Below are positions 1-49,132 of a DNA stretch of 64,000 nt, piece by piece (position 1 is the stretch's first letter; the number at the start of each line of letters is the position of its first letter). The notes under the pieces are model-generated. The model made no database searches. It worked only from the letters and a program-made list of their open reading frames with translations, and was not told the DNA's origin. Where the stretch lies: NCBI GenBank assembly GCA_051294375.1, contig CM119263.1, positions 20,302,115 through 20,366,114 on the forward strand, in the 5' to 3' direction. Made by a program: the position numbers and the translations under genes. Source of the stretch: Paraspadella gotoi (Eukaryota > Animalia > Chaetognatha).

Positions 1-47
<47 letters not shown>

Positions 48-798
48 AAGAGATCACAAATATATCACTTGTCACATGAGGGGAAAAGTTTTATTACTTC
101 TTCCGCCCAATCAATTTTTTAATATATAACCTCTCAATTTCTTTTTGTTCTCTCTTTTCTTGCGACATATGTGGGTTTTTTCTCATTTCNNNNNNNNNNN
201 NNNNNNNNNNNNNNNNNNNNNNNNNNNNNNNNNNNNNNNNNNNNNNNNNNNNNNNNNNNNNNNNNNNNNNNNNNNNNNNNNNNNNNNNNNNNNNNNNNNN
301 NNNNNNNNNNNNNCTCTCTCTCTCCCATTTCTACTCCGCTTCGTTCCTCGCTTCAAAGGACGGCGTTTTTTTTCTTTTCCCTTCAAAGACTTTAACCCAA
401 AAACCGAAGACGATGACGTGAGGCGAGGATTTTGGAGGACTTCTTCGCGCGTGAACGCTGGTCCCGGCGTGAAAACAGCTTTTCCCTCTCCGTCTCTGTC
501 TCTCTCTTCCTCTCTCTTTCTCTCTTCCCCTCTTCTTCGACGAACCGGAAAACCACGAGCGCTGAATACGCGTGGAAAAAAAAAGAGAAAAAAGCCGGGA
601 GGCGTCGGCGTTTTATTATTAAGAGAAAAGTTAAAAAAAAAAAGAAAAGAAAAATAGAAGAAGCGCGTCGGTGATTGGCTGGCTGCCGCGTCGCCCGGCT
701 ACCGGCGATGCGTCGGATTAGCCAATCACGGTTTAGAAATGAAACGCTTCGCCGCCCGGAAACGGAAAAAAAAATCTGAGCAATCCGCTCCGACGACG
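1..798 (+). repeat. Near-identical duplicate of ~5021-5811, interrupted and ended by N-gaps (190-313, 799-823); probably an assembly artefact
   Basis: Positions 41-189 and 314-798 match 5061-5811 except for a few 1-nt indels (ttccgcccaa vs ttccccaa; tggaggac vs tggagac). The gap at 190-313 replaces the (CT)n tract of the second copy. Confidence 0.85.
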
Positions 799-1338
799 NN
801 NNNNNNNNNNNNNNNNNNNNNNNCATCGTTGCATCGTTCATTAGCTCGTTGTCATTGGGGTCACGTACTGTTATGATACGGTTGCATTCTTCAAATTTAA
901 ATTGGTCGGTCGCATTATTGTGAATCGTTCAACGCTTAATATTATTGGGGTCTCGCGTTGCGTCATTCCGAGTCTCAGTCTTAGCTCATGCTCTTCGGCT
1001 TCGTCCATCGCTTTCTGTCCATTGGTTCCAGTTCAATTGAATTTGTCTCATTGCTAATCGCAACAACAATTATTATTTGAAAGGGAAAAGTAGATTTAAA
1101 GTGCAAAGCGACAACAGACTTAGTTACGCCGCCTTGAAAAAATCTCCACACTAACTTTGAGACTGACGATGATGATGAAAATGTTCAAGCTGATAGTTAT
1201 GAGGCGATCGTAACAATGACGACGATGAGCGCTCACGGCTTGCTTGCGTTCTGAGTATTTTTATATACCATGATCCATTAACGACGGGAATCGTCAGCGA
1301 TTTAATTGTTGGTAGGCGCAAGAACGATGTTATAAATT

Positions 1339-1421: not shown

Positions 1422-2484
1422 TTACTCTCTCTTTTCTCTCCTTCTCTCTCTTCTCCTCTCTTCTTATTCTTCTCTTTCTCTCCTCCTACTCTCTCCTCTC
1501 TCATCCATTATCCTTATCTACTATCCTATTGTCTCGCTCAATCTAAGTAATAACAATCTATATCTTTTTCACATTTCTCCTCTATTCTCTCATAATCAGA
1601 ATAACCAAAAAGAACCAAACAAAAAAAAAACAAATAAAGAATGTAGAATGGAAGAAACAAAGAAAGAAGAAACGGTTAGGAAAAAAGAAAGAAAAAAAAA
1701 TAGATAAAATAAAAGAAAGATCGACAATCGCAAGCTGCTCTCTCAAATGGAATCGAAAAAATCGATCGTATATGGAAAACGCGATCACGTGACGAGCGAA
1801 CGATCACCATGTCAACACGACGTCACCGTCGCCGCGCTCCTCACACAGCGTCGGCGTTTTTCTTATTTTCGTTTTTTTTTAAATTATCGGATGTACACGT
1901 TTCATAGTTGAGCGGCCCAAGCACCGCCGCGTCGGCCGTAACGATGAGACTTTCCGATATTTACCAGCGGCAACGCCTTAGCGTTTTTGTTCGGTGATAT
2001 TCCGCACCGTATGTCCGCGTAGTCGTACCATTCGCCGCCAGTGGAAAACCATAAACGGTTTGGCTCATACGGGCAGCGCTGTGATGTCGATGGCCTGCGA
2101 GTGCGGTCCTGGCGGCGTCTCGGCGCCAGTGGCGGCGCCAGCGCAACGCCGAGGTACTGCCGAAGTCGGACGTCAAATTCGGTGACGCATCGACCTCGAG
2201 ACGAGAAAAGCGATTCCCTCGCAGAAAGATAAAAGAGGGAAAGAAAGGAGGAGAGAGGGATGAGAGAAGGGAACTTGTTGTGGTAACGATTGACAGGAAA
2301 TGCTGGATCGTTGAGGTGGATTGGAGTTAGTCTTGAGGAACTGAAGATTATGAAAACAAAGTGGTGTGCGCGTGGATAAGGGAATTCTAAAAGTGATTAG
2401 GATGAGGCGTCATCAGGAACAAGGGAGAAAAAGGAGCGGCTGACCAGAAAGGTTGAATGGTATGAAAAACAATGAAAAAGATGT

Positions 2485-2820
2485 GTGGAGTAAGGAGGAA
2501 TAGGAGTTGACAGCAATTATGAGATGAGTATTGAGAGTGGAGCCAATGATGATGTGAAGTAAGGAGGAATAGTAGTGACAGCAATTATGAGATGAATTAT
2601 TGAGGAGTGGAGCCAATGATGTGTGGAGAGTAAGGAGTGAATAGTAGTGACAGAAATTATGAGATTGAGGTATTAAGGAGTGGAGCCAATGATGTGTGAG
2701 TAAGGCGGGAATAGTAATGACAGCAATTATGAGATGGGTATTGAGAGTGGAGCCAATGGTGTGTGGAGTAAGAGAATACTATGACGCAATTATGAGAGGA
2801 GTATTGAGGAGTGGAGCCAA
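2485..2820. repeat. Degenerate minisatellite, ~65-73 bp unit, ~5 copies
   Basis: Recurring anchors gacagcaattatgagat and gtggagccaa (near 2537, 2607, 2680, 2747, 2811). Confidence 0.85.
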
Positions 2821-2869
2821 AGAACATTTGAGGAAAAAAGTTAGGATTGGTTCGGAAGACCTTAGGAGG

Positions 2870-3255
2870 AGAAAAATTAGAGAGAAAGAAATTTAGGAGT
2901 GGATTGAGTCGTTAAGAAGTGAAAATGTGGAAGAGAAAGAAATTAGGAGTGGAGTGGATGACGTTAAGAGGTGAAAAATGGAGACAAATACATGAGAAAG
3001 AAATTAGGAGTGGAGTGGTGACGTTAGAGGGAAAAAGTGAGACAAAGACATTGAAGAAAGAAATTAGGAGTGGATGGACGTTAAGAGTGAAAAGTGAGGA
3101 GAAAGAAATCATGAGTGGATTGGATGAGTTTAAGAGTGAAAAGTGGCAGGAAAGAAATATGAGTGGAGTGGATGACTTAAGTCGTAAAATGAAGAGAAGA
3201 CATTGAGAAGAAATTAGGAGTGAAGTGGATGACGTTAAGAGGTGAAAAGTGGAGA
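2870..3255. repeat. Degenerate minisatellite, ~50-60 bp unit, ~7 copies
   Basis: Recurring gaaagaaattaggagtgga...gacgttaagag.tgaaaa. Confidence 0.85.
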
Positions 3256-4362: not shown

Positions 4363-5025
4363 TATCTAGACGCATCTGCATCCAAAATTGCTCACTTTGC
4401 CGCGCGATGCTCGGCCGCGCTCTCGGCGCATAAAAACGAAAAAAAAAAAAAAAAAAACACAAAAAACAACACAACCCAGAGACGTGGTTTCGGGAAGAGA
4501 ATTTCCAGATTGAAGGAAAAGTGTGAAGGATGTCGGACCGTTGTCTGTCGAAAAATATCTCTAGGAAAAAAACGAAATTGATCGGCCTTTGCACTCTGAG
4601 AGACTTTTCTCTTAGCGAGTTTGCATTGAGAAAGGCGATGCCACGATTGCCACAATTCCACATTGAGAGGAAACAATGAATGAAGCGAAACGTAAAATGG
4701 AAATCTGTTTTCGTCGGGTGACGATCGAGATTTGCCCAAAAAGCCCTCACCTTTTTCCTCGGAGATTGGCAGAGAGATGGAGAGGAAGACCAGGGAGTAA
4801 AATTTGAATTCAGGGACTTTTAAGTTTTTGTGGTGAAAAATCTTGAAATTATTATCAATTGTGTATTTTGAAAAAAATCGATTTTCATTACAATTTGTTA
4901 GCCTCGTCAATACAATTTTAGCAGGCTTGATTAAGAGTAAAGATAAAGAAAAGAAAAGAAGAGAGAGAGAGAGAAGAAGAGAGAGAGAGAGAGGAGAGAG
5001 AGAGAAGGAGAGAGAGAGAGAGAGA

Positions 5026-5067
<42 letters not shown>

Positions 5068-5245
5068 AAGAGATCACAAATATATCACTTGTCACATGAG
5101 GGGAAAAGTTTTATTACTTCTTCCCCAATCAATTTTTAATAAATATAACCTCTCAATTTCTTTTTGTTCTCTCTTTTCTTGCGACATATGTGGGTTTTTT
5201 CTCATTTCACTTTTTATTTCCTGTCCATTGCCTCTCTCTCTCTCT

Positions 5246-5341
<96 letters not shown>

Positions 5342-6287
5342 ATTTCTACTCCGCTTCGTTCCTCGCTTCAAAGGACGGCGTTTTTTTTCTTTTCCCTTCA
5401 AAGACTTTAACCCAAAAACCGAAGACGATGACGTGAGGCGAGGATTTTGGAGACTTCTTCGCGCGTGAACGCTGGTCCCGGCGTGAAAACAGCTTTTCCC
5501 TCTCCGTCTCTGTCTCTCTCTTCCTCTCTCTTTCTCTCTTCCCCTCTTCTTCGACGAACCGGAAAACCACGAGCGCTGAATACGCGTGGAAAAAAAAAGA
5601 GAAAAAAGCCGGGAGGCGTCGGCGTTTTATTATTAAGAGAAAAGTTAAAAAAAAAAGAAAAGAAAAATAGAAGAAGCGCGTCGGTGATTGGCTGGCTGCC
5701 GCGTCGCCCGGCTACCGGCGATGCGTCGGATTAGCCAATCACGGTTTAGAAATGAAACGCTTCGCCGCCCGGAAACGGAAAAAAAAATCTGAGCAATCCG
5801 CTCCGACGACGCTGCCCCCAAAAAAGTGGCCGGCCCCCCAAAGAGCCTTAAAACTAATCAGTAGAACACAATGTGAGCAATCGTCTAGTAGTAGGAGGGA
5901 GAGGGGGGGACCGGGGTGGAGAATTTGACGCCGATTCTGTTGACCGAGAGCGATAAGGAAACCCTTCAAAGAGAAATTTAGTGATAAGCAAATTCTGGGG
6001 GGGGGAAACAATCGGGCCATGAGCCCTATTAAATAATAAATAATTAATAAAAAAAAATTACTATTTTTTTCCACTCTTTTCTGCTGAATTGTTAAAAATC
6101 AAAGAAATGTCACAAGCATCATTAATTTCAAAATGAGACAATATATAAACTATCAGCTAAGTCTCATTAATTACTAATTCTCAACGTCCAATTTTTCCTC
6201 CCTTCAACTCTTTTTTAAATCCCCCCTCATCCATTCTTTCTTTTTTTCCCACCCTCTTCGCTCGAACCTCACCCTTCCTTACCCCAG

Positions 6288-15059
<8,772 letters not shown>

Positions 15060-19286: not shown

Positions 19287-22200
19287 TTAAGTTTGTCGAC
19301 GTCGGGATCGAATATCCGGAAAGAGCATTTGGGCAAAGGCCGATCGAAAGTTTTTGTTGAATACCGTGTAGAGGATTGGGTTGAGCGCGGAGTTGGCGTA
19401 ACCTGGGAGAATGGCGCGAAAAGATGTTTTATATTATATTATTTCATATTATTACCTGCTATTTATTATGAATTTAAAATATCGTAAAAAATCTCAACTG
19501 AAAGCTTAGTGTTTATTTTATCATTGCCCCAAATATTATTAATTTATTTTATAAAATGTATTCACAGTGAGCCAGAAGACATTTGGTGTCAGTATCCGCG
19601 CAAATCTATCAAAAATGGACTTGACGTTGATTTTGAAATAGAAATTCCAAAATAACTGCTCATCTCGAAATTAACATTTTGAGACAATAAATTATAAAAA
19701 TAATTATTATAATAATTTTCTGTCACTGCTGCACATATTAAATTATTGAGACAGGGCAAAATCAACTTATCATGTAGTCAGCTATTACTATACTAATGAT
19801 TATTTTTATATAACAATGCTTGGGCTAATAAAAATAGATAATATATATATAATATAATATAATAAATATATAAATATATAAATATAATAATATAATAAAA
19901 ATAGATAATATATATATATATATATATACTGGGAGTGAATAAACAAGTCTGTGAGAGAGACTTGATTAAAAGCTTGCAGAAACCTGTTATGTTATTATCT
20001 TGCAAGTGTGATGGAGGCCTTAAACCACCAAAGCCTGTCCAAAGTCAGGGACAAGATAGCTTATTTATTAAATGGATGGATAATTTTTATATTGGTTGTA
20101 CCAATTTCATAAAGATGGGTCATTATAATTATATTTATATTATTATATTATATTTATATTATATTTATAATTTTATTATGGTAAATAAGACAAGTACTGA
20201 AGCCAATTGCTATGAACTTAAGTGTTATAAAATGCCTTGGGTGAATGTTAATAGTCCTCAAACTCCTCATGATTGTAACCTAGGCTCAAAAGATGATATA
20301 CTTCATATTGTAATGCATCTGGATCGAATCCTACACATCTACAGTATTTTAGTTATAAGTAAAAATATTATTTGCAGTCATTAGACTTTTCACCCTTATC
20401 CTGTATGGCAGTCAGTTTTTTATAAGCTTATTGTATTGCGCTTTAAGGAAGACTGCATATAGGTCCGATAACCAAAGTTTCAAATATTTTTAATCAATCC
20501 TAGTTAAGAAAAAGGGTCATTCAATTCAACTTCAAAATAGGCCAAAATGGAGTACAAATTCAGAAAGCTGAGCTCCTGGCGATTCCGAAAATGTATTCAC
20601 TTTAAACATTTGATGCATTCTACCCCATTTTATATCGGTTTTAATTATAATATAAAATAAAAGAAACCTATCTGAAGAGTTGCAGGTCAAACGAAAAGGC
20701 TAATCCATCTGATATTTTTTATGAATTTTTTATTACTGAATTAGAAAAATGTAATAGAGAGACATTTTTAAATTTCAACTTGTATCCTTGAAAATGAAAC
20801 GTTTTTAAACTTTAACCCTGAATTCTTTCTAACTGGAACGCGTTTATCAAAATGTCTCTCTATTACATTTTTACAAATGTTTTTAAGATTGCTAATCAAA
20901 TTTTTAATTCAATATTATTGCAGTCGTTTAGGCTGCAACTCTTCAAATTCAGTGTAGATTGATTGTAGCTCGAATTTCTTTACCATCTATTTAACTGAAG
21001 ATTTTGTTCATGACTGGAAAACCAACAGAGTAACGAGATTAATTGTTTAATTCTCCCCTTCTAAACTAACCCATACCCTGTTTTAACTTCTTACCTAGAA
21101 TTTTTTAACAACCAGATTGAAAGACAAATCTTTAAAAAATGTGCTTACCCATTTAACTTAACAATTTTTTTATTTACTCATTTAAAAAAAATGATTAAAA
21201 ACAGATTGTTTACATATAAATAAAAACTTTTTTTTTGTGATTACTGATGATAATAATGTATTTCTCGATATATTAGCTCTAATACATCAATGATTACGTA
21301 TTGTTATGCTGAATGACCTTTCCTTGTAAACGAATCTTTGTAAGGACATTTTATACAAAGATGAACGCACTTTTCCTCCTTTCTGGATATAAAGTGGCGT
21401 GTTTTTTTTTTTTTTGCACTGTAATTTAATTTTCACTTTAGGTGTTGTACAGAATATAATATAATAAAAAAATTAATTAGACCTAAATTTTTAATTTTCA
21501 TGATGACCGAAACTTCGGGCATGATGCACAATATACAGTGGGTAAGGCCACCGACTTACCCAACCAAAAGAAGATGGCTTCCACGAAAGGCGGGGGTTTC
21601 GGGCATAAAGTTACGCAGAGGCCGTTGGTGACGGTGTAGCAGACGAAAAACGGCGTCCAGCAAATTAGAAACGACGCCATGATGACTTCCAGCATCTGCA
21701 TCGCTTTTGCTGAATATTGTAGGAGAGAAGGTGGTCGTTATAAATGGGAAAGGAAAAGGAAAGGAATATAAGGTTAATAGAAATTAATATCACTGATGAG
21801 AATTTCTGATAAATCGCGAATAATTTTTAGCCAAATGTGGATGATAGATGATAGATGCGTTTTTAGTCTTGCGGCCTTTCGAGAAGAGAATGTTGCGTGA
21901 CTTCTACGAATACAATCAGGATTATGAAGAAATAATTTCTTTCTTTTTTTCGTCTCAAATTTGCTCCATAAATTCAATCGCACCACGAATACGTTTTTCT
22001 CTTTTTTATCGGCAAAATGAAAATTAAAACGAATCGTTGAAAAAATCGTGATAATCGACGAAATTGAAAAAAGAATAGAAAGATACGAATGACATCCGTA
22101 ATAATTGATAAAAGCGAATGTCATTTAATTTTTATAAAGCTTGAATTATTAACATAATATTGTCGAATATACCCGACTGACCCAAACTGACACAAACTGA

Positions 22201-29992: not shown

Positions 29993-32900
29993 TCTGGCGA
30001 CCGCAATCAATCCTCGCTCAGTTTCGACATTTTTGGCAAAACGTTTCTGCTGTCTCTTTTTTCCTCTCTTTTTTCTACATACATATCTCTACCTCCTTCT
30101 CTCTCTTTTTCACTTCCTCGTACTCTCGTTAGTAAACGCTAATGCGCGATTTTTATTTTTTTTTATTTTTTTAGTTCAAAATGTTAACTTAGTACATCAC
30201 GAAATCACCTCACGCCATCACTCACGTCATCGCCGTGTCCTGGTTTTCGCCTCAAGTTCACACTTCTGGGGCTCACAACTCACAAATCATTGCGAAGCTC
30301 GTAAACTTTTAAATAGTAGGATAAACATCATAGATCATATTCATAGCAAATCATTAATAAATCCAGTAACAAAGGATCAAAGAGTTAGTTGCTCCATAAT
30401 TCAAACAACGGCGATTTTTAGACTTTCACAATCGGCAACAACTTAAACAACTTAAAAATCCCCGGGGGTGGGAGCGGCAGCTCAGACGGACGCCGAAGAA
30501 GGAAGTGACTTAATAAGACTCTAGAGAAACGTTTGGAGGCGACACCTATGTTGCCGCCTTCGCCTCGGCACAAAGGAACGAGCTCACTCTTCGGCGATTC
30601 AGGATTTCGCGAAGAAAAGAATTCGTAATGGGTGAAAGGAGAAGAAAGAAATCTGGGTTGAAATTGTCCGCGGGTTTCTTTCCCGCCAAATTCTTTTTCC
30701 AGAAGACGATGATGATGACGACGACAACGACAATTACGAAGACGACAAAGAAGAAGACGACGACGTTTGAACCGAGGAAAGACAACCACAATTTAAAGTA
30801 GCATCAGACGAGACAAATCTGTGAATGAAAAAACCCACTTATTTGTCCTCCACAGTTTCTAATCTCTGAGGTCTGAAAATACTTTTAAACGGTCACAGTT
30901 GTGCTCAGAAAGGGAATAAGCAAATGGTCAATAGGCAAGGAATTTAAGAACAGACTACAACAAAAAAAGCCGCTTAGTTTTTCGTCTCTTCGCCATTTCC
31001 GGAGCTGTGAGCAGACTTTGTCACCAGGTGGTCCTCGTCGTTGGAATCTTGGTTCGTATCGACGTCGTCGTTGTCGTCGTCGTCTCCGCCCCATGGGATC
31101 GTCATCTCGCCCCATTAGAGGCCGCCTCCGTCGACGCATTTTGTTTTCACAATTGGCTTCAATGTTTACTCTGCCGTTTTATCTCGTAAACTCGGGGAGA
31201 GCTAATTGATGTGAAGATTTGACGCCCGCGCAGCCGGAGCAAACGAAAGAAGCCATTTGGCGGATGTCATTTCGATCCAGGCTTTGTTAAAACGTATTTT
31301 TTTACGACATGAAATGAAGTGAAAATTGTTAATTTATAATTATTCTATTTTTTACCAAATTTAAACGTTTTGTATTTAACGTATCGGGTCAGGGCTTTTC
31401 TTCTTCATCTCGCCCTCACCTCCTCATTCCTCACCTGGATTCTTCGGGAATTTTGCTCAGCGGTTCGAGATCCACGTGGCAGATGCTCCTCTGTTTTCGC
31501 ATCTTCCAACCGACGCCTCCGTCTCCGCCTTCCGTCGCCGCCGTCGCCGTCTCCGTCGACGCACCATTCATTAGCGGCAGATTTCCGCCGCCGCCGCCGC
31601 CGCCGCGTTTCATGCGCCGCAGCAGCAGATCCTCGTTCAACGAAAACGATCTCATGTCGTTGGAGAGGAATTTCTTGCGTCGATCGCCGAAGCGTTTGTC
31701 CGCGGGGCCGACGGCCCGCTTGGCCGCCGGCGAAGGCTTTTCGGTGGAGACGGAGTTGACGACGTCGTTGGGAAGTCGGGTCGGAGTGGCGACGTCGGCG
31801 TGACGGATGGGAGTGGAAGGATCGAGCAAAGGCGAAGTGTCCGTGAGATTCCCCGCCTTGTCCGGTGAATCGAAAGGCGGTCGTTTTGAGGAGAAAGTGA
31901 TCGATGGGGACACGCCCCCTTTTCCTCCTATTCCATTGATCTTCTCAATCTCTTCCCTTCCTCCCCTATCACCGCCTCCGAACATCAGAGAAAAATTGCG
32001 ACGTAAAAATTTGGGTTTGAGTATCGAGTCTTTGACGTCGTCGAGACTCGTCTCGCTCGAGCAGTGGGAGAGGCGAGTACGGGAAGAACGAGGACGCCTG
32101 GGGATTGGAAAAACGCGACGTCATTGGGTGTAAGTCCTTCGAAAAGAAATATTAAAGGGGCAGAACGTTTTGGTGGTCTCGACGTTTTTGCCCGAACTAA
32201 AAAAACTTAAGCAAGAAAATTTTAGCGGAGTCAAAATGAAACACTTTTTCCCGATGTTCTTTTAAATAACTGAATCGTTAACGATCTTGAAATCTACTTT
32301 TTAATTTCATGGCGGAAAAAATTTTACTCTTTCAATTGATACATAATTCAAGATATCATTTTTCAAATTTAAAAAGTTTAATTTCATAATGGAGTGCAGC
32401 TGCAAAAAAAAATTTATAAATTTTCCATATATTTCGACATAAGTTTCTATGAATCGGTACAACCAATATAAAAATTATCCATTCATTTAATAAATAAGCT
32501 ATCTTGCCCCTGACTTTGGACAGGCTTTGGTGGTTTAAGGCCTCCATCACTCTTACAAGATAATGACATAGCAGGTCCCTGCAAGGTTTCAATCAAGACT
32601 CTCTCACAGTCTTGTTTATTCACTCCCAGAGTACCTGGCTTCCCTATCAATGAAGTGGTATAATATTCAAAGAATGTTTTCAATTGTATGAAAGACCACT
32701 CCCTTAAGTATTAGATCGGGGAATACTTATTGTACTCCGCACTCGCATCAAAATACAAGGAGCTGAATTTTATGAAATCGCGGTACAAACCAATATAAAA
32801 ATTATCCATTCATTTAATAAATAAGCTATCTTGCCCCTGACTTTGACAGGCTTTGGTGGTTTAAGGCCTCCATCACTCTTACAAGATAATGACATAGCAG

Positions 32901-35349
32901 GTCTCTGCAAGGTTTCAATCAAGACTCTCTCACAGTCTCGTTTATTCACTCCCAGAGTACCTGGCTTCCCTATCAATGAAGTGGTATAATATTCAAAGAA
33001 TGTTTTCAATTGTATGAAAAGACCACTCCCTTAAGTATTAGATCGGGAATACTTATTTACTCCGCACTCGCATCAAAAACAAGGAGCTGAATTTTATGAA
33101 ATCGGTACAACCAATATAAAATATTCCATTCATTTAATAAATAAGCTATCTTGCCCCTGACTTTGGACAGGCTTTGGTGGTTTAAGGCCTCCATCACTCT
33201 TACAAGATAATGACATAGCAGGTCCCTGCAAGGTTTTCAATCAAGACTCTCTCCACAGTCTCGTTTATTCACTCCCAGAGTACCTGGCTTCCCTATCAAT
33301 GAAGTGGGTATAATATTCAAAGAATGTTTCAATTGTATGAAAAGACCACTCCCTTAAGTATTAGATCGGGGAATACTTATTGTACTCCGCACTCGCATCA
33401 AAATACAAGGAGCTGAATTTTATGAAATCGCGTACAACCAATATAAAAATTATCCATTCATTTAATAAAATAAGCTATCTTGCCCCTGACTTTGGACAGG
33501 CTTTGGTGGTTTAAGGCCTCCATCACTCTTACAAGATAATGACATAGCAGGTCCCTGCAAGGTTTCAATCAAGACTCTCTCACAGTCTATGTCTATGTCA
33601 TCTTCAGTGGAAGAAAAAGAATTAACAAACAAAACTTTTACAAAGTAAGAAATAGAGAAATAAAGAGAGAGAGACACAATAACAATGAAAAGGCTAAAGA
33701 CTAAATGACCTTAAAGTGGTCAGAAGAACCCAAAAAGGGTTGGCCCCCCACCCCTTCATAAGTCATTAAAGACACAGTTCCACGCGTCAGTTTTCACGTA
33801 GAAACTTATGTCGAAATATATGGAAAATTTATAAATTTTTTTTTTGCACTGCACTCCATTATGAAATTAAACTTTTTAATCATTATACTAACAGTGCATG
33901 AGATGACGTTAAAAGAATTTTTCAAATTTTTTTTCATTAAATACTTTTTCATTAGTTAGTAATCATGTGAAACAACGACAACAAAACATTCATTTTTAAA
34001 CAGCATTTACCCCAAGTTTGTCTGTACTTCGGAAATTGGTTTTCCTCCAAGGTTTGAAAATTTTTTTGTCTCTCTCTCTCTCTCCGTCACAGTCTTTTTC
34101 TTTTCTCTTCTTTTCTCATTTCTTTTTATGACGTATTTGTTCTTTACACCTGCTCATTTTTACCCTTTTTTTCCTTCTTGCCAAGGCGTCGTTAATTCTT
34201 TTTCCCATTTTTTTAACTACTTTATTTATTTCTTTTTAATTATGCACATTAAGTTTTCTCTCTTTTTTCCCCTTTTTCTCTTTCTTTCTCCATCTCTATC
34301 TTTCTTTCCTTCAAGTTCCATGTCACCTCTTGCTCTTTTTTTTCTTTTCTTATTAATAGGCCATAAATTTGTCGGCGACAGAATCGTTTTTTCTTCTTAA
34401 ATCACAATCGATTCATTAAAAACTTAGTGTTTGATCTACCGGCCATTACCTCGTAATTTTTGTTTTTTTTCTTTCATACGCTAAAATTGTTTTTTCTTAT
34501 TTTTCTTCTCTGCTGGTTTTTCCAACTTTTTTCCTTCATGTTATGTTTTCTACGTCTCAATGTCAACTCATATTTCTACTATTTCTTTTTATCGCTCTCC
34601 CCTCAATTATGCTTTCTCTGATACTCTACTTATATGAAATTGGTACAGCCAATATAAAAATTATCCATTCATTTAATAAATAAGCTATCATGCCCCTGAC
34701 TTTGGACAGGCTTTGGTGGTTTAAGGCCTCCATAACTCTTACAAGATAATGACATAGCAGGTCCCTGCAAGCTTTCAATCAAGACTCTCTCACAGTCTCG
34801 TTTATTCACTCCCAGAGTACCTGGCTTCCCTATCAATGAAGTGGTATAATATTCAAAGAATGTTTCAATTGTATGAAATGTTTGAAATGGAACATTCCTT
34901 TTCAAAGCCCTTAAATCGTCCAATCTCCCCCACCTTATTTCTTTGTATTTTTCTCTCTCTACTTCTTTTTCTCATCCCTACTTGTTCGTCTTCTTGAGCA
35001 AATCCTCCCTGAACGCCGCCATCTTTGACGACGCCGGCTCCCGCCTCTCTTTGGCCTCCGACGCCGGGGCGTCGCGCAGAATCGGCGAAACGGCGCCGTT
35101 TTCCTCTTCCTCTTCCTTCTTCCCATCGACGTCGGGCGAGTCGTCTACGTCGGCGTCGAAGGTTTTGGCACGCCCGACGTTCTTGAGGACGCCGCGACGA
35201 CAAGGGCGCGGCTGAGGGGCGGCGGTGGCGGAGGTGGGGTTGTCGAGGCTGTCAACCGGCGGCGGAGAGGGAGTGTCGCCGCCGAAGGGGAAGGCCAGAG
35301 ATTGTCTAGACGATCGGAGGGATGACAGCGATGTTTGAAGGTTTTTGAC

Positions 35350-38400: not shown

Positions 38401-41292
38401 TTTTCCGAGAACAAGTCACTCTCCTGAAAAAAAAAATACGGAAGAAAAAAACAAAAGCGCTTTGCTTCGGAAGAGTAAGTCAGTCGTTATGAGAAACGCG
38501 ATTCCTTTCCTTCTTCCTTTCATCGTGTCTTTTTCTTTCCTTTCACGTGAGTTTCTTTTTTCGTCGGAATTGGTTGAACTGTGAACACGTCACGTGAATT
38601 AAAACGAAAAAAAACAAACTAATAAATAAATTATTTCTTATTCAACTTCCATACGGACCAACGTTTGATTTTAAGACCATCTTTTCCTTATATTATCGTA
38701 ATTGAACAAAGCGAAAATTCAAATTTCACTGCTTTCATTCTTTGTACTCCTCTTCTTAATGTTTCCTCTTCCACCCTTTTTGCAAACTCGCTCGACTGTT
38801 AACATTTTCTTCTCCTTCCCCACTCCTTGTGTGTCTCTCATCTATTTTAATAATGATGTTCCTTTGTTTTTCTTCTCGTTTTTGTTCTCGTCGGCGTCGC
38901 CATCATCTCCATACTAGTCTTCTTTCATTTTTCTTCGCCCTTGTCCGCTAGGCGTCTTCATTGCTCCTCGTTCAGTTTTGTTTTGTTTTTTTTTTCTTCG
39001 GGGGAGGTGCGGTTTTTTTTTCCGGAGCCGTGCGAAATGATGGAAACGACCACGTCCTGCCTCTGGCAGTTATATTTTACTTGCTTCGGCAGTCATTGTT
39101 AAAGTCCAAAAGAGTTATAGTAAGGAAAAAAGCGATCATAAGCTTTGACCAAGTCGATGAAATTGTGAATAATGAAAGAAGGTTCTAAGACTATGTTCGT
39201 AGTATTAACCCTTAAAATAACAATCAAACTCCTAACCCGCTAATCTTATCGAGCTAGGGTCTTTGCTCCTACTCTACCTAGCCTCACCTCCAATCCTCCT
39301 ATACATTGCTTCAACTCCACCGCTCCATCTCTCTCGTGCTTCACCCCCACTTCTCTTCTACCTTGTCTCTCTCCAACGCCCCCCCCACACCCTCACCCAA
39401 GAAGGCCTATAATTCCTCCATCTCGCGGAGGCGGTTCCGTCGAAGGAGTCGTCGACGGAGGCGAACTTGAGGGTGTTGGCGCGGATGCTGCGGACGAACT
39501 TGGCTTTGGCCTTCAACTTGATGTAGACTTTGGCGTAGACGACGAGGAGTAGTACGAGAGGGACGTAGAAGGATCCCGAGGCCGAGTAGATCACGTAGCC
39601 TGAGGGAAAGGAATGATTGAAAAAGAAATACGGGAAACTGGAAAATATTTGTTTAAAATGTCAATTGAAATCTGTCATCGAAGGAAATGACTAAAATATT
39701 CGGACTGTGCCGTGAGGAGTAGAAGGTGAAGCGCGAACTTCAGGGGCATCTAGTCACTTTAATACTGTGTGTAATAGTGTAATAGTGTAATAGTGAAGAT
39801 ATCTGTTGAGAAAAGGGAGCAGAGAGGGTTGGGGAAATTTGGGTTATCAAGGGAAAAACAATGTGACGTTTTGAGACAGAAGAAAATCAAATTATTTTTA
39901 ATCAATCAGAGATCAAAGAATCAGAACAAACCATTTAATCAATCGGTAAATCGATCGGTCAATCTGATGAATTGAGTACACGCTAAATTACAAAACGAAA
40001 GGGATAAATATACGTTCTACCGTTAACATTATTTCCGTTCTTAACCGGATCCGTTGATGTCATATCGGGTCGTTTGTCAAACTCTAGATTCTGGAATGTT
40101 GTCATAACGCGAGTCATTTATTATTCGCCCGTCGTTTCGATCAAGCCTCAATTTAGGGATCGAGGACGACGACGACGACGACAACGACAACAACAACGAT
40201 GACGAGGCGGGAAAAATACCGCGAAAATCGTTTCAGTGTAAACAAGTTGATGGCGGGAGGAAGCGAGCGTAAAACCGTTGAAACGTGCAAGGAATGATTG
40301 TTTCCTAGCTTTCCAGCTGGAGATACACGATTTAAGAACTGCAGCATTTATTTATTCATTTTTTTTATTTATTCGTATACTCGAGAATAGCATTGAGTTT
40401 TCTTAAAAAAAGCCATTACTTTTAATTTAAAAAAGGTAAAGTATTCCTCGCATCTCTTGGTTGCACAGCTGCAATATTCTCACCCGGTGACAGGTTTTAT
40501 TTTTTCCCCCTTTTTTTTTCTTTTTTAAGAATTTTTTTTCTTTCGGTTTTGTTTTGGATGAATGTACTGCGCAATAGACTTGGTTTTTTCTCTTTACGTT
40601 TTTTCGCGATTTTTTTTTTTATGACGAACTTCTCAATCGTACAGGACCAAGGGGACCTTCTTTATTCTGGATATCGGTTCAAAAATGTTTTATTAGAATA
40701 AAAGGAATGGAATTGTAGGTAATAACAATTCCGACCTGGAGTCTGAAAGAGAACGCACTGCGCAACGTCGGACGAGTTGGAGACGACGTATGAGGGACGA
40801 TCTCGCCAACCGAACAAAGGCGGAACCGTGATCACGATGGACAGGGTCCAAGATCTGAAGCCGAAGAGACAACGGTAAAGGTGTTAATGTTAATGACACA
40901 AATTTAATTACCAGTGACATTTCTGTTCAAATAATTCACATAGAAGATTACCCGCAAATATAACCCAACGCAAGTGTTCCGGATTTTTTGTGCAACAGGT
41001 ATTTCGCTGGATAGTTGGTCGCCATGAAACGATCTGTAACAAATACGTAATTTATATTTTAATTAGGTTTTTTTGACGCCATCTTTTTTTCCCTACATCG
41101 ATCCTCTCTCCTCACCCAGCGCGATGGCCACGATGGCCCAGATGGACGCCGTGCAACAAAGGACGTCAATGGAAAGCCAAAGGTTACAGATGAATTCGCC
41201 AAAGGGCCATCTGCTGAGGACCTCGTTGGCCATCGAGAAAGGGAGGACCGTCAGACTGAGGAGTAGGTCACACATCGCCAAGTTGCCTGAGA

Positions 41293-48840: not shown

Positions 48841-49132
48841 TAATACTTAAGGTAGTGGTCTTTTCATACAATTGAAACATTCTTTGAAATATTATACCAA
48901 GTTATTGTTAGGGAAGCCAGGTACTCTGGGAGTGTATAAACGAGAGAGTCTTGATTGAAAGCTTGCAGGGACCTGCTATGTCATTATATCTTGTAAGAGT
49001 GATGGAGTCCTTAAACCACCAAAGCCTGTCCAAAGTCAGGGGCAAGATAGATCGATTTCTAAATTGATCAAAAATAATTTAAAATGTGCAAGATATAGCT
49101 TATTCATTAAATGAATGAATAATTTTTATATT
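48841..49132 (+). mobile_element. Dispersed decayed copy of the ~325-bp repeat; twister motif at 48987-49049
   Basis: Matches the unit. The palindrome is altered to AGUCCU. A ~38-bp insertion lies between direct repeats of gcaagata (49042-49049 and 49088-49095). Confidence 0.9.

What the first reader, a model, noticed from the sequence alone, without database searches (positions are those of the whole stretch)
32538..32543. P1 stem replaced by the palindrome AGGCCU: possible dimer-dependent twister
Seen: only six self-complementary bases lie between the GA-UGG strand and the UAA strand. A monomer can therefore form at most one A-U pair capped by GGCC. The palindrome is intact in 6 of 7 copies. 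Established: minimal hammerheads in tandem repeats (newt satellite 2, Penelope-like elements) have a tiny stem III with a palindromic loop and cleave as dimers, and engineered twisters can tolerate loss of P1. Inference: two neighbouring motifs pair AGGCCU:AGGCCU to make a double twister, which would restrict cleavage to tandem transcripts.
Basis: partly seen in the sequence, partly recalled or inferred. Interest (0 to 1): 0.82.

Follow-up and report, generated by a model that had tools for sequence, protein, structure and literature searches.

The report
Twister ribozyme completed by its neighbour
A 326-base repeated element in an animal genome carries a twister-type self-cutting RNA motif whose usual end stem is replaced by a six-letter palindrome, so it likely cuts well only when two neighbouring copies in one transcript pair up, a trick described for hammerhead ribozymes but not found for twisters in our literature searches.

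Summary
Observation confirmed. Seven copies of the motif lie in the window; six keep AGGCCU. The motif is a type-P5 twister (Rfam 25.8 bits, E 0.0066, below the 37.6 cut-off; P1 loop length zero) with catalytic A and G and both pseudoknots intact in five copies. It sits in a non-coding 326-nt element with a fixed 3' end, ragged 5' ends and a 3.5-unit array, i.e. a retrozyme/Penelope-pLTR-like element carrying a twister instead of a hammerhead. Of 39 natural type-P5 twisters fetched, 38 have 14-42-nt P1 linkers and one has 2 nt. Unconstrained folding of a tandem transcript pairs the two palindromes (P 0.92) and frees P4 (0.86-0.95 against 0.06-0.11 for single copies). Against: P1 is dispensable in tested twisters, the swap gains only 2.3 kcal/mol over a high computed barrier, the palindrome could be a collapsed hairpin, and no palindrome covariation could be tested. 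Dimer activation about 0.5; strict dependence about 0.3. No cleavage or expression was shown.

The parts
32538..32543 (-). AGGCCU palindrome in place of the P1 hairpin; predicted to pair with the same word of the next copy
   Evidence: P1 aligned with a zero-length loop; pairing probability 0.92 in a tandem transcript
32544..32548 (-). GAUGG strand: general-base G at 32548; UGG pairs with CCA of loop L4 (pseudoknot T1/PK2, A-U in place of the consensus C-G)
   Evidence: sequence; Rfam alignment; roles from established twister knowledge
32535..32537 (-). UAA strand; predicted cut between U 32537 and A 32536 (general acid)
   Evidence: cut site inferred from the family (PMC8501958 passages)
32525..32534 (-). 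P2 strand ACC, pseudoknot T2/PK1 strand AC (pairs with GU of L4), and C-AAA-G loop
   Evidence: sequence; same 3+2+loop layout in natural type-P5 twisters
32509..32524 (-). P4 hairpin (4 bp) with loop L4
32549..32552 (-). Partner strand of P2 (GAGU): two clean pairs, then a C.A mismatch or a bulged A
   Evidence: 9 of 9 natural twisters with ACC have GGU here
32500..32562 (-). Whole type-P5 motif, closed by an 8-bp P5 stem (32562-32555 with 32507-32500)
32448..33596 (-). Head-to-tail array: one 5'-truncated unit followed by three full units of 321-329 nt, four motifs (palindromes at 33514, 33185, 32864, 32538)
32453..32467 (-). Short hairpin at the fixed 3' end of the element, which ends 89-90 nt after the predicted cut
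   Evidence: perfect 6-bp stem at 20091-20105 in the plus-strand copy
34633..34878 (-). Single 5'-truncated copy; palindrome intact, general-base G changed to U
19929..20111 (+). Single 5'-truncated copy, intact core and palindrome, abutting the window's only long (TA)n run
48841..49050 (+). Single copy with intact core and broken palindrome AGUCCU; its 3' part is interrupted

Best explanation
The motif is a type-P5 twister core inside a non-coding 326-nt repeated element that is likely a retrozyme-like retroelement, and its P1 stem is predicted to form only between neighbouring copies, so tandem transcripts would cut much better than single copies. Shown: the sequence anatomy, the array, the fixed 3' end. 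Computed: when two units are in one RNA, AGGCCU pairs with AGGCCU, the P2 and P5 strands swap partners, and two active-site frames form back to back; a lone copy folds GAUGG onto the P4 arm instead. Inferred: cutting at U^A in successive copies releases a unit-length RNA with 5'-OH and cyclic-phosphate ends, a host ligase closes it, the circle has one palindrome and is therefore protected from re-cutting, and a borrowed reverse transcriptase (Penelope-like by analogy) copies it from a fixed start, giving mostly 5'-truncated single copies and sometimes arrays.
For: Rfam Twister-P5 hit with zero-length P1 loop. Both pseudoknots pair through changes from the consensus (sequence). 38 of 39 natural type-P5 twisters fetched have 14-42-nt linkers, so this one is an outlier. 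Unconstrained tandem fold: palindrome duplex P 0.92, swapped P5 0.83-0.86 against 0.05-0.07 in cis. Swapped frame -113.6 against cis -108.1 kcal/mol; the order holds for 4 of 4 palindromic linkers and reverses for 3 of 3 non-palindromic ones, AGUCCU included. P4 forms with P 0.86-0.95 in three dimers, 0.66-0.81 in the array, 0.06-0.11 in five single AGGCCU copies and 0.06 in the circle. Cost of the active frame: natural controls median 3.95 kcal/mol (n 38), single copies 7.6-8.1, swapped dimer 5.3, cis in a dimer 8.9-9.1. Run X1 holds 1181 contigs of the element with a shared end near 32452 and summed depth falling about 20-fold toward the 5' end. The 3 variants at 1% or more inside the motif all fall at tolerant places: the loop A, the P2 mismatch base, a G.U to A-U change in P5 (post hoc). 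A second, unrelated motif with a 2-nt self-complementary linker exists (L032). Precedent for hammerheads: PMC4209133, PMC7229834.
Against: Natural twisters tolerate P1 defects and P1 is called dispensable (PMC11662667 section 32; PMC6154101), though PMC8501958 calls P1-less cleavage inefficient. One A-U pair with a 4-nt loop is not obviously too short for a monomer (own knowledge). The swapped fold is only 2.3 kcal/mol below two self-folded motifs, with a direct-path barrier of about 34 kcal/mol (upper bound), against 11.7 for a monomer to free P4. The folding omits both pseudoknots and Mg2+. The monomer misfold is not special to the palindrome: 43.5% of all 4096 linkers are as bad or worse. 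Any tandem hairpin with a palindromic loop would favour a swap on paper. No variant at 1% in the palindrome, but the family is too uniform for this to count (3 variants in 63 positions). P2 has a mismatch. No target-site duplication at 4 of 4 loci, no RT or endonuclease in the 150 longest frames scanned, circle not unusually stable (z -1.1).
Confidence: 0.5

Rival explanations
1. It is an active twister that simply lost P1: each copy cuts on its own, the palindrome is the stump of a hairpin whose loop was deleted, and pairing between copies adds little. The element is still a twister retrozyme.
For: P1 dispensable and P1/P2 defects tolerated in about 1950 scored natural twisters; Rfam aligns the six bases as AGG/CCU with no loop; catalytic bases and pseudoknots intact; lower barrier for the monomer; L032 has only two linker bases and forms P4 alone (P 0.83).
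Against: Those tests concerned type-P1 candidates with open ends (sections 9, 31), not a closed 6-nt linker; the monomer's active frame costs more than in 37 of 38 controls; a symmetric loop loss is needed to leave a perfect palindrome.
Confidence: 0.3
2. The motif is a dead or nearly dead twister carried as a passenger in a young repeat that spreads by its 3' end alone.
For: Score below Rfam's cut-off; P2 mismatch; no fewer variants inside the motif than outside (3 in 63 against 6 rows in 106 positions); most copies in X1 appear to be short 3' fragments; depth shows no step at the predicted cut.
Against: All core bases, both pseudoknots, P4 and an 8-bp P5 are kept; the variants avoid constrained positions.
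Confidence: 0.15
3. The element moves as DNA by a rolling-circle (Helitron-like) route, which also gives one fixed end, a terminal hairpin, arrays and no target duplication; the ribozyme only processes transcripts.
For: Fixed end with hairpin and no duplication.
Against: The ends do not read TC...CTRR (recalled Helitron rule); the fixed end is the 3' end of the ribozyme strand, as in Penelope-like insertions (PMC8557442).
Confidence: 0.05

Closest known systems
Type-P5 twister ribozyme (Rfam RF02684)
   Same: Strand order, UAA cut site, GANGG strand, 3-nt P2 strand, P4/L4, both pseudoknots.
   Different: P1 hairpin replaced by a loop-less 6-nt palindrome; third P2 pair mismatched or bulged; lies in an animal repeat; score under the gathering cut-off.
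Metazoan non-LTR retrozymes (Cervera and de la Pena 2020, PMC7229834; bioRxiv 10.64898/2026.07.22.740005)
   Same: Non-coding tandem unit in the 150-450 bp range, GC under 50% (0.38-0.39), one ribozyme per unit, short arrays plus single copies.
   Different: Defined by type I hammerheads; no hammerhead core on either strand here. Circular RNA not shown; circle not predicted to be unusually self-paired.
Dimeric minimal hammerheads of newt/axolotl satellites and Penelope-like pLTRs (PMC4209133, PMC6765202)
   Same: The helix next to the cut site is reduced to a palindrome that can be completed by a tandem neighbour.
   Different: Different ribozyme class; hammerhead helix III holds the substrate strand, twister P1 is reported dispensable.
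Schistosoma T-variant twisters of Perere-3 RTE elements (PMC8501958)
   Same: Natural twisters with weak or absent P1 in a retroelement.
   Different: They are type-P1, sit at the element's 5' end and take their P1 strand from the insertion site; here the motif is permuted, internal, 89-90 nt from the 3' end, with a fixed palindrome.

Membership tests
Twister ribozyme, type P5 | Permuted order P2-GANGG-P1-UAA-P2-T2-P4/L4 with conserved catalytic A and G | tested here: met
   5 of 7 copies match the descriptor
Twister ribozyme, type P5 | Two pseudoknots pair | tested here: met
   CCA/UGG and AC/GU, read from the sequence against the consensus
Twister ribozyme, type P5 | P1 hairpin within one molecule | tested here: not met
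   zero-length loop; 38 of 39 fetched relatives have 14-42 nt
Twister ribozyme, type P5 | Rfam gathering score 37.6 | tested here: not met
   25.8 bits, E 0.0066 for 1301 bases; none at gathering in the window
Twister ribozyme, type P5 | Site-specific self-cleavage | not testable with these tools
   needs in vitro assay
Non-LTR retrozyme | Short non-coding tandem unit with one ribozyme each | tested here: met
   three frames over the unit had no Pfam hit
Non-LTR retrozyme | Type I hammerhead | tested here: not met
   no Rfam hammerhead hit, no core motif
Non-LTR retrozyme | Expressed as linear and circular monomers | tested here: inconclusive
   only assembled contigs of runs of unrecorded type were available
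Penelope-like non-autonomous element | Fixed 3' end, 5' truncation, partial tandem, ribozyme near the 3' end | tested here: met
   3 of 3 loci with an intact end stop at the same place; X1 loose ends and depth slope
Penelope-like non-autonomous element | 3' sequence shared with an RT/GIY-YIG-coding partner | tested here: inconclusive
   no genome held; none in the window; no twister-like match in the Naiad/Chlamys supplement text

The most novel reading that the evidence does not exclude
This is the first obligate double twister: a class of P1-less type-P5 twisters in eukaryotic retroelements (this family and L032) that has converged on the newt-hammerhead trick, so that thousands of single copies and the circular RNA stay uncut while tandem transcripts are processed, and twisters fill the ribozyme slot of a Penelope-like lineage.
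Probability: 0.3. Interest if true: 0.88.

Novelty: new variant of a known kind. Interest (0 to 1): 0.7.

Why it matters
Retrozymes and dimer-activated ribozymes are described for hammerheads. A twister doing the same would show that the circle-forming retroelement strategy, and its copy-number switch, arose in a second ribozyme class, and would mean that hammerhead-only surveys and Rfam cut-offs miss a high-copy family. It would explain how a genome tolerates many sense-strand intronic copies of a fast ribozyme. It also offers a natural tandem-dependent twister for circular-RNA engineering. The test is cheap: three or four short transcripts.

Tried and rejected
No whole genome is held, so copy number, palindrome variation and an autonomous partner could not be surveyed. 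Search for other short-linker type-P5 twisters: 1 of 25 metagenome loci passed the structural filter with a linker of 9 nt or less (L032), 0 of 3 prokaryote-genome loci, 0 of 18, 0 of 120 (36 of 64 parts scanned) and 0 of 41 viral loci. The single metagenome scan used the GAGGG core, so this family's own GAUGG core was not searched there. Exact family word in viral contigs: 0; unit against phages: no match. Sequencing runs: no RNA holder listed; X2 and X3 hold one contig each, X4 and X5 none, no conclusion drawn. Idea that AGGCCU was selected to misfold the monomer: rejected. Idea that a 3-nt P2 strand is a defect: rejected, it is the norm in type P5. Idea that Naiad elements carry twisters: not supported by text search of the PMC8557442 supplement, which misses words broken by line ends. 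No tRNA head, no A or B box (motifs recalled). Earlier findings of the scan: nothing in 3 look-ups. The CHiTA supplement, which lists 2625 twisters including crustacean ones, could not be read and may hold similar motifs; Kosutic 2015 is not held.

Full report
Observation. AGGCCT is at 32538-32543. On the minus strand the motif reads P5 strand, P2 strand, GAUGG, AGGCCU, UAA, ACC, AC, CAAAG, P4 hairpin, P5 strand. Seven copies lie in the window, six with the palindrome and one with AGUCCU. A descriptor finds 5 copies and none in 100 shuffles. One copy lacks a base in L4 (32864, possibly an assembly error, since the array has many homopolymer indels) and one has lost the general-base G (34724).

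What the motif is. Rfam finds nothing at gathering thresholds but gives Twister-P5 at 25.8 bits, E 0.0066, aligning AGG with CCU across a loop of zero bases. Both pseudoknots pair through bases that differ from the consensus. To calibrate, I fetched 207 loci by pattern and filtered them for P2, P4 and both pseudoknots: 39 unique type-P5 motifs, 38 with linkers of 14-42 nt (fold energies -6.0 to -29.2 kcal/mol for the 14 computed) and one with 2 nt. Four of the six patterns asked for short linkers, so the sample is not unbiased, but the bias favours short ones. A 3-nt P2 strand is normal; the 9 relatives with ACC all pair it with GGU, so the window's AGU leaves a mismatch or bulge.

The element. 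The motif sits in a 326-nt unit repeated 3.5 times at 32448-33596, with three single, 5'-shortened copies elsewhere. The three loci with an intact end stop at the same place, 89-90 nt after the predicted cut, just behind a short hairpin; 5' ends all differ; I found no target duplication. Run X1 (type not on record) holds 1181 contigs of it, 50 with a loose end at 32452, and summed depth drops about 20-fold from the 3' to the 5' part (the tool warns that depth is no copy number). This is the layout described for Penelope-like insertions (5' truncation, partial tandems, ribozyme near the 3' end; PMC8557442 passages) and for non-LTR retrozymes (PMC7229834 passages and Discussion; bioRxiv 2026.07.22.740005 parts 1-2 of 5), except that those carry hammerheads. 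Because genomic units do not end at the cut site, the copied template was probably a circle or an uncut multimer (inference). No RT was found in the 150 longest of 219 high-complexity frames. The array and the 34.7-kb copy lie between two exons of an aminergic-type GPCR gene on the same strand, so host transcription would pass through them in the ribozyme's sense (inference).

Can neighbours complete each other? A lone motif folds into a rod in which GAUGG pairs with the P4 arm. In a 487-nt two-motif transcript folded without constraints the palindromes pair (P 0.92), the P5 strands swap and both P4 hairpins are free; the preference survives other palindromes (4 of 4) and reverses without one (3 of 3). 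P4 forms with P 0.06-0.11 in five single AGGCCU copies, 0.20 in the AGUCCU copy, 0.06 in the circle, 0.86-0.95 in three dimers and 0.66-0.81 in the whole array. The active frame costs 7.6-8.1 kcal/mol in single copies, 5.3 in the swapped dimer and a median 3.95 in 38 natural controls. Put differently, one unit plus six redundant bases is an ordinary type-P1 twister whose P5 loop is the spacer.

Results against. The swapped fold lies only 2.3 kcal/mol under two self-folded motifs, and the direct-path barrier is about 34 kcal/mol; this is an upper bound that ignores branch migration, but the first motif folds long before the second is made. The models omit pseudoknots. The monomer's poor fold is not peculiar to AGGCCU. 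In tests of about 1950 natural twisters, P1 and P2 defects did not lower cleavage while pseudoknot and catalytic changes did (PMC11662667 sections 9, 31, 32, 35); P1 is called dispensable (PMC6154101 passages), though inefficient cleavage without it is also stated (PMC8501958). The palindrome may be a collapsed hairpin. In X1 no palindrome variant reaches 1%, but only 3 of 63 motif positions vary at all, so the test has no power; those three fall at tolerant places, which hints, post hoc, at selection on the fold. The circle is not unusually stable (z -1.1).

A second case. L032, a microsatellite-rich 1293-nt metagenome contig unrelated to the unit, holds one type-P5 motif with a 2-nt UA linker, the same bulged P2 pattern and a P5 stem (Rfam 19.9 bits, E 1.8). 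It cuts both ways: two bases cannot close a hairpin, which fits a swapped dimer, but they give almost no pairing energy, which fits a P1-free monomer. It is one weak-scoring sequence from a very large scan.

Literature. Nine answered searches and one for domain-swapped twisters turned up no dimeric or palindromic twister and no twister retrozyme in the listings or in the passages read (also PMC7761336, PMC6765202, PMC10085705, PMC4209133, PMC13725137, bioRxiv 2026.09.16.752053, PMC8457670). Truncated twisters at RTE 5' ends are mentioned. The library lacks most subscription papers, Roth 2014, Kosutic 2015, Lunse 2017 and Forster 1988 were seen only as citations, and the CHiTA supplement was unreadable.

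Verdict. A real twister-type motif in a high-copy retrozyme-like element, with a P1 that can only form between copies. Dimer-boosted cleavage 0.5 (strict dependence 0.3), active P1-less monomer 0.3, inactive passenger 0.15, DNA-based spread 0.05. New variant of a known kind; interest 0.7.

Noticed in passing
window 39361-39660 (-) and 21501-21737 (-): Two exon-like frames of a rhodopsin-family GPCR (weak Pfam 7tm_1 hits; the second matches dopamine, serotonin and octopamine receptors, best E 1.9e-10). Five twister copies lie between them in the gene's sense.
   Followed up: partly
window 19908-19927: The only (TA)n run of 12 nt or more in the window abuts the 5' end of the 19929-20111 copy; (TA)n targets are reported for Naiad Penelope-like elements. 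One locus of four.
   Followed up: partly
L032 342-381 (-): Second type-P5 twister-like motif with a 2-nt linker, bulged P2 and a P5 stem in a eukaryote-like contig, single copy.
   Followed up: partly
L004-L007, L011, L014-L016: Two viral contigs carry runs of type-P5 twisters every few hundred bases, each in front of a ribosome-binding site and start codon.
   Followed up: no
L045 1001-1044 (-): Weak Twister-P5 match (22.5 bits, E 0.4) in a bacterial genome bin with a 9-nt linker holding a 6-nt palindrome; it failed my pseudoknot filter.
   Followed up: partly
window 49050-49132: The 49-kb copy is interrupted just after P5 by about 40 unrelated bases, after which a repeat of the P5 strand and the 3' part resume.
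   Followed up: no
window 1-800 and 5020-5811: A duplication of about 800 bases at 5014-5020 spacing, with the window's two N gaps in or next to the first copy; possibly an assembly artefact.
   Followed up: no
window 10188-10508 (+): Weak Pfam MATH_2 hit (E 0.00034, below cut-off).
   Followed up: no
window 2480-3255: Purine-rich minisatellites with units of 49-70 nt.
   Followed up: no
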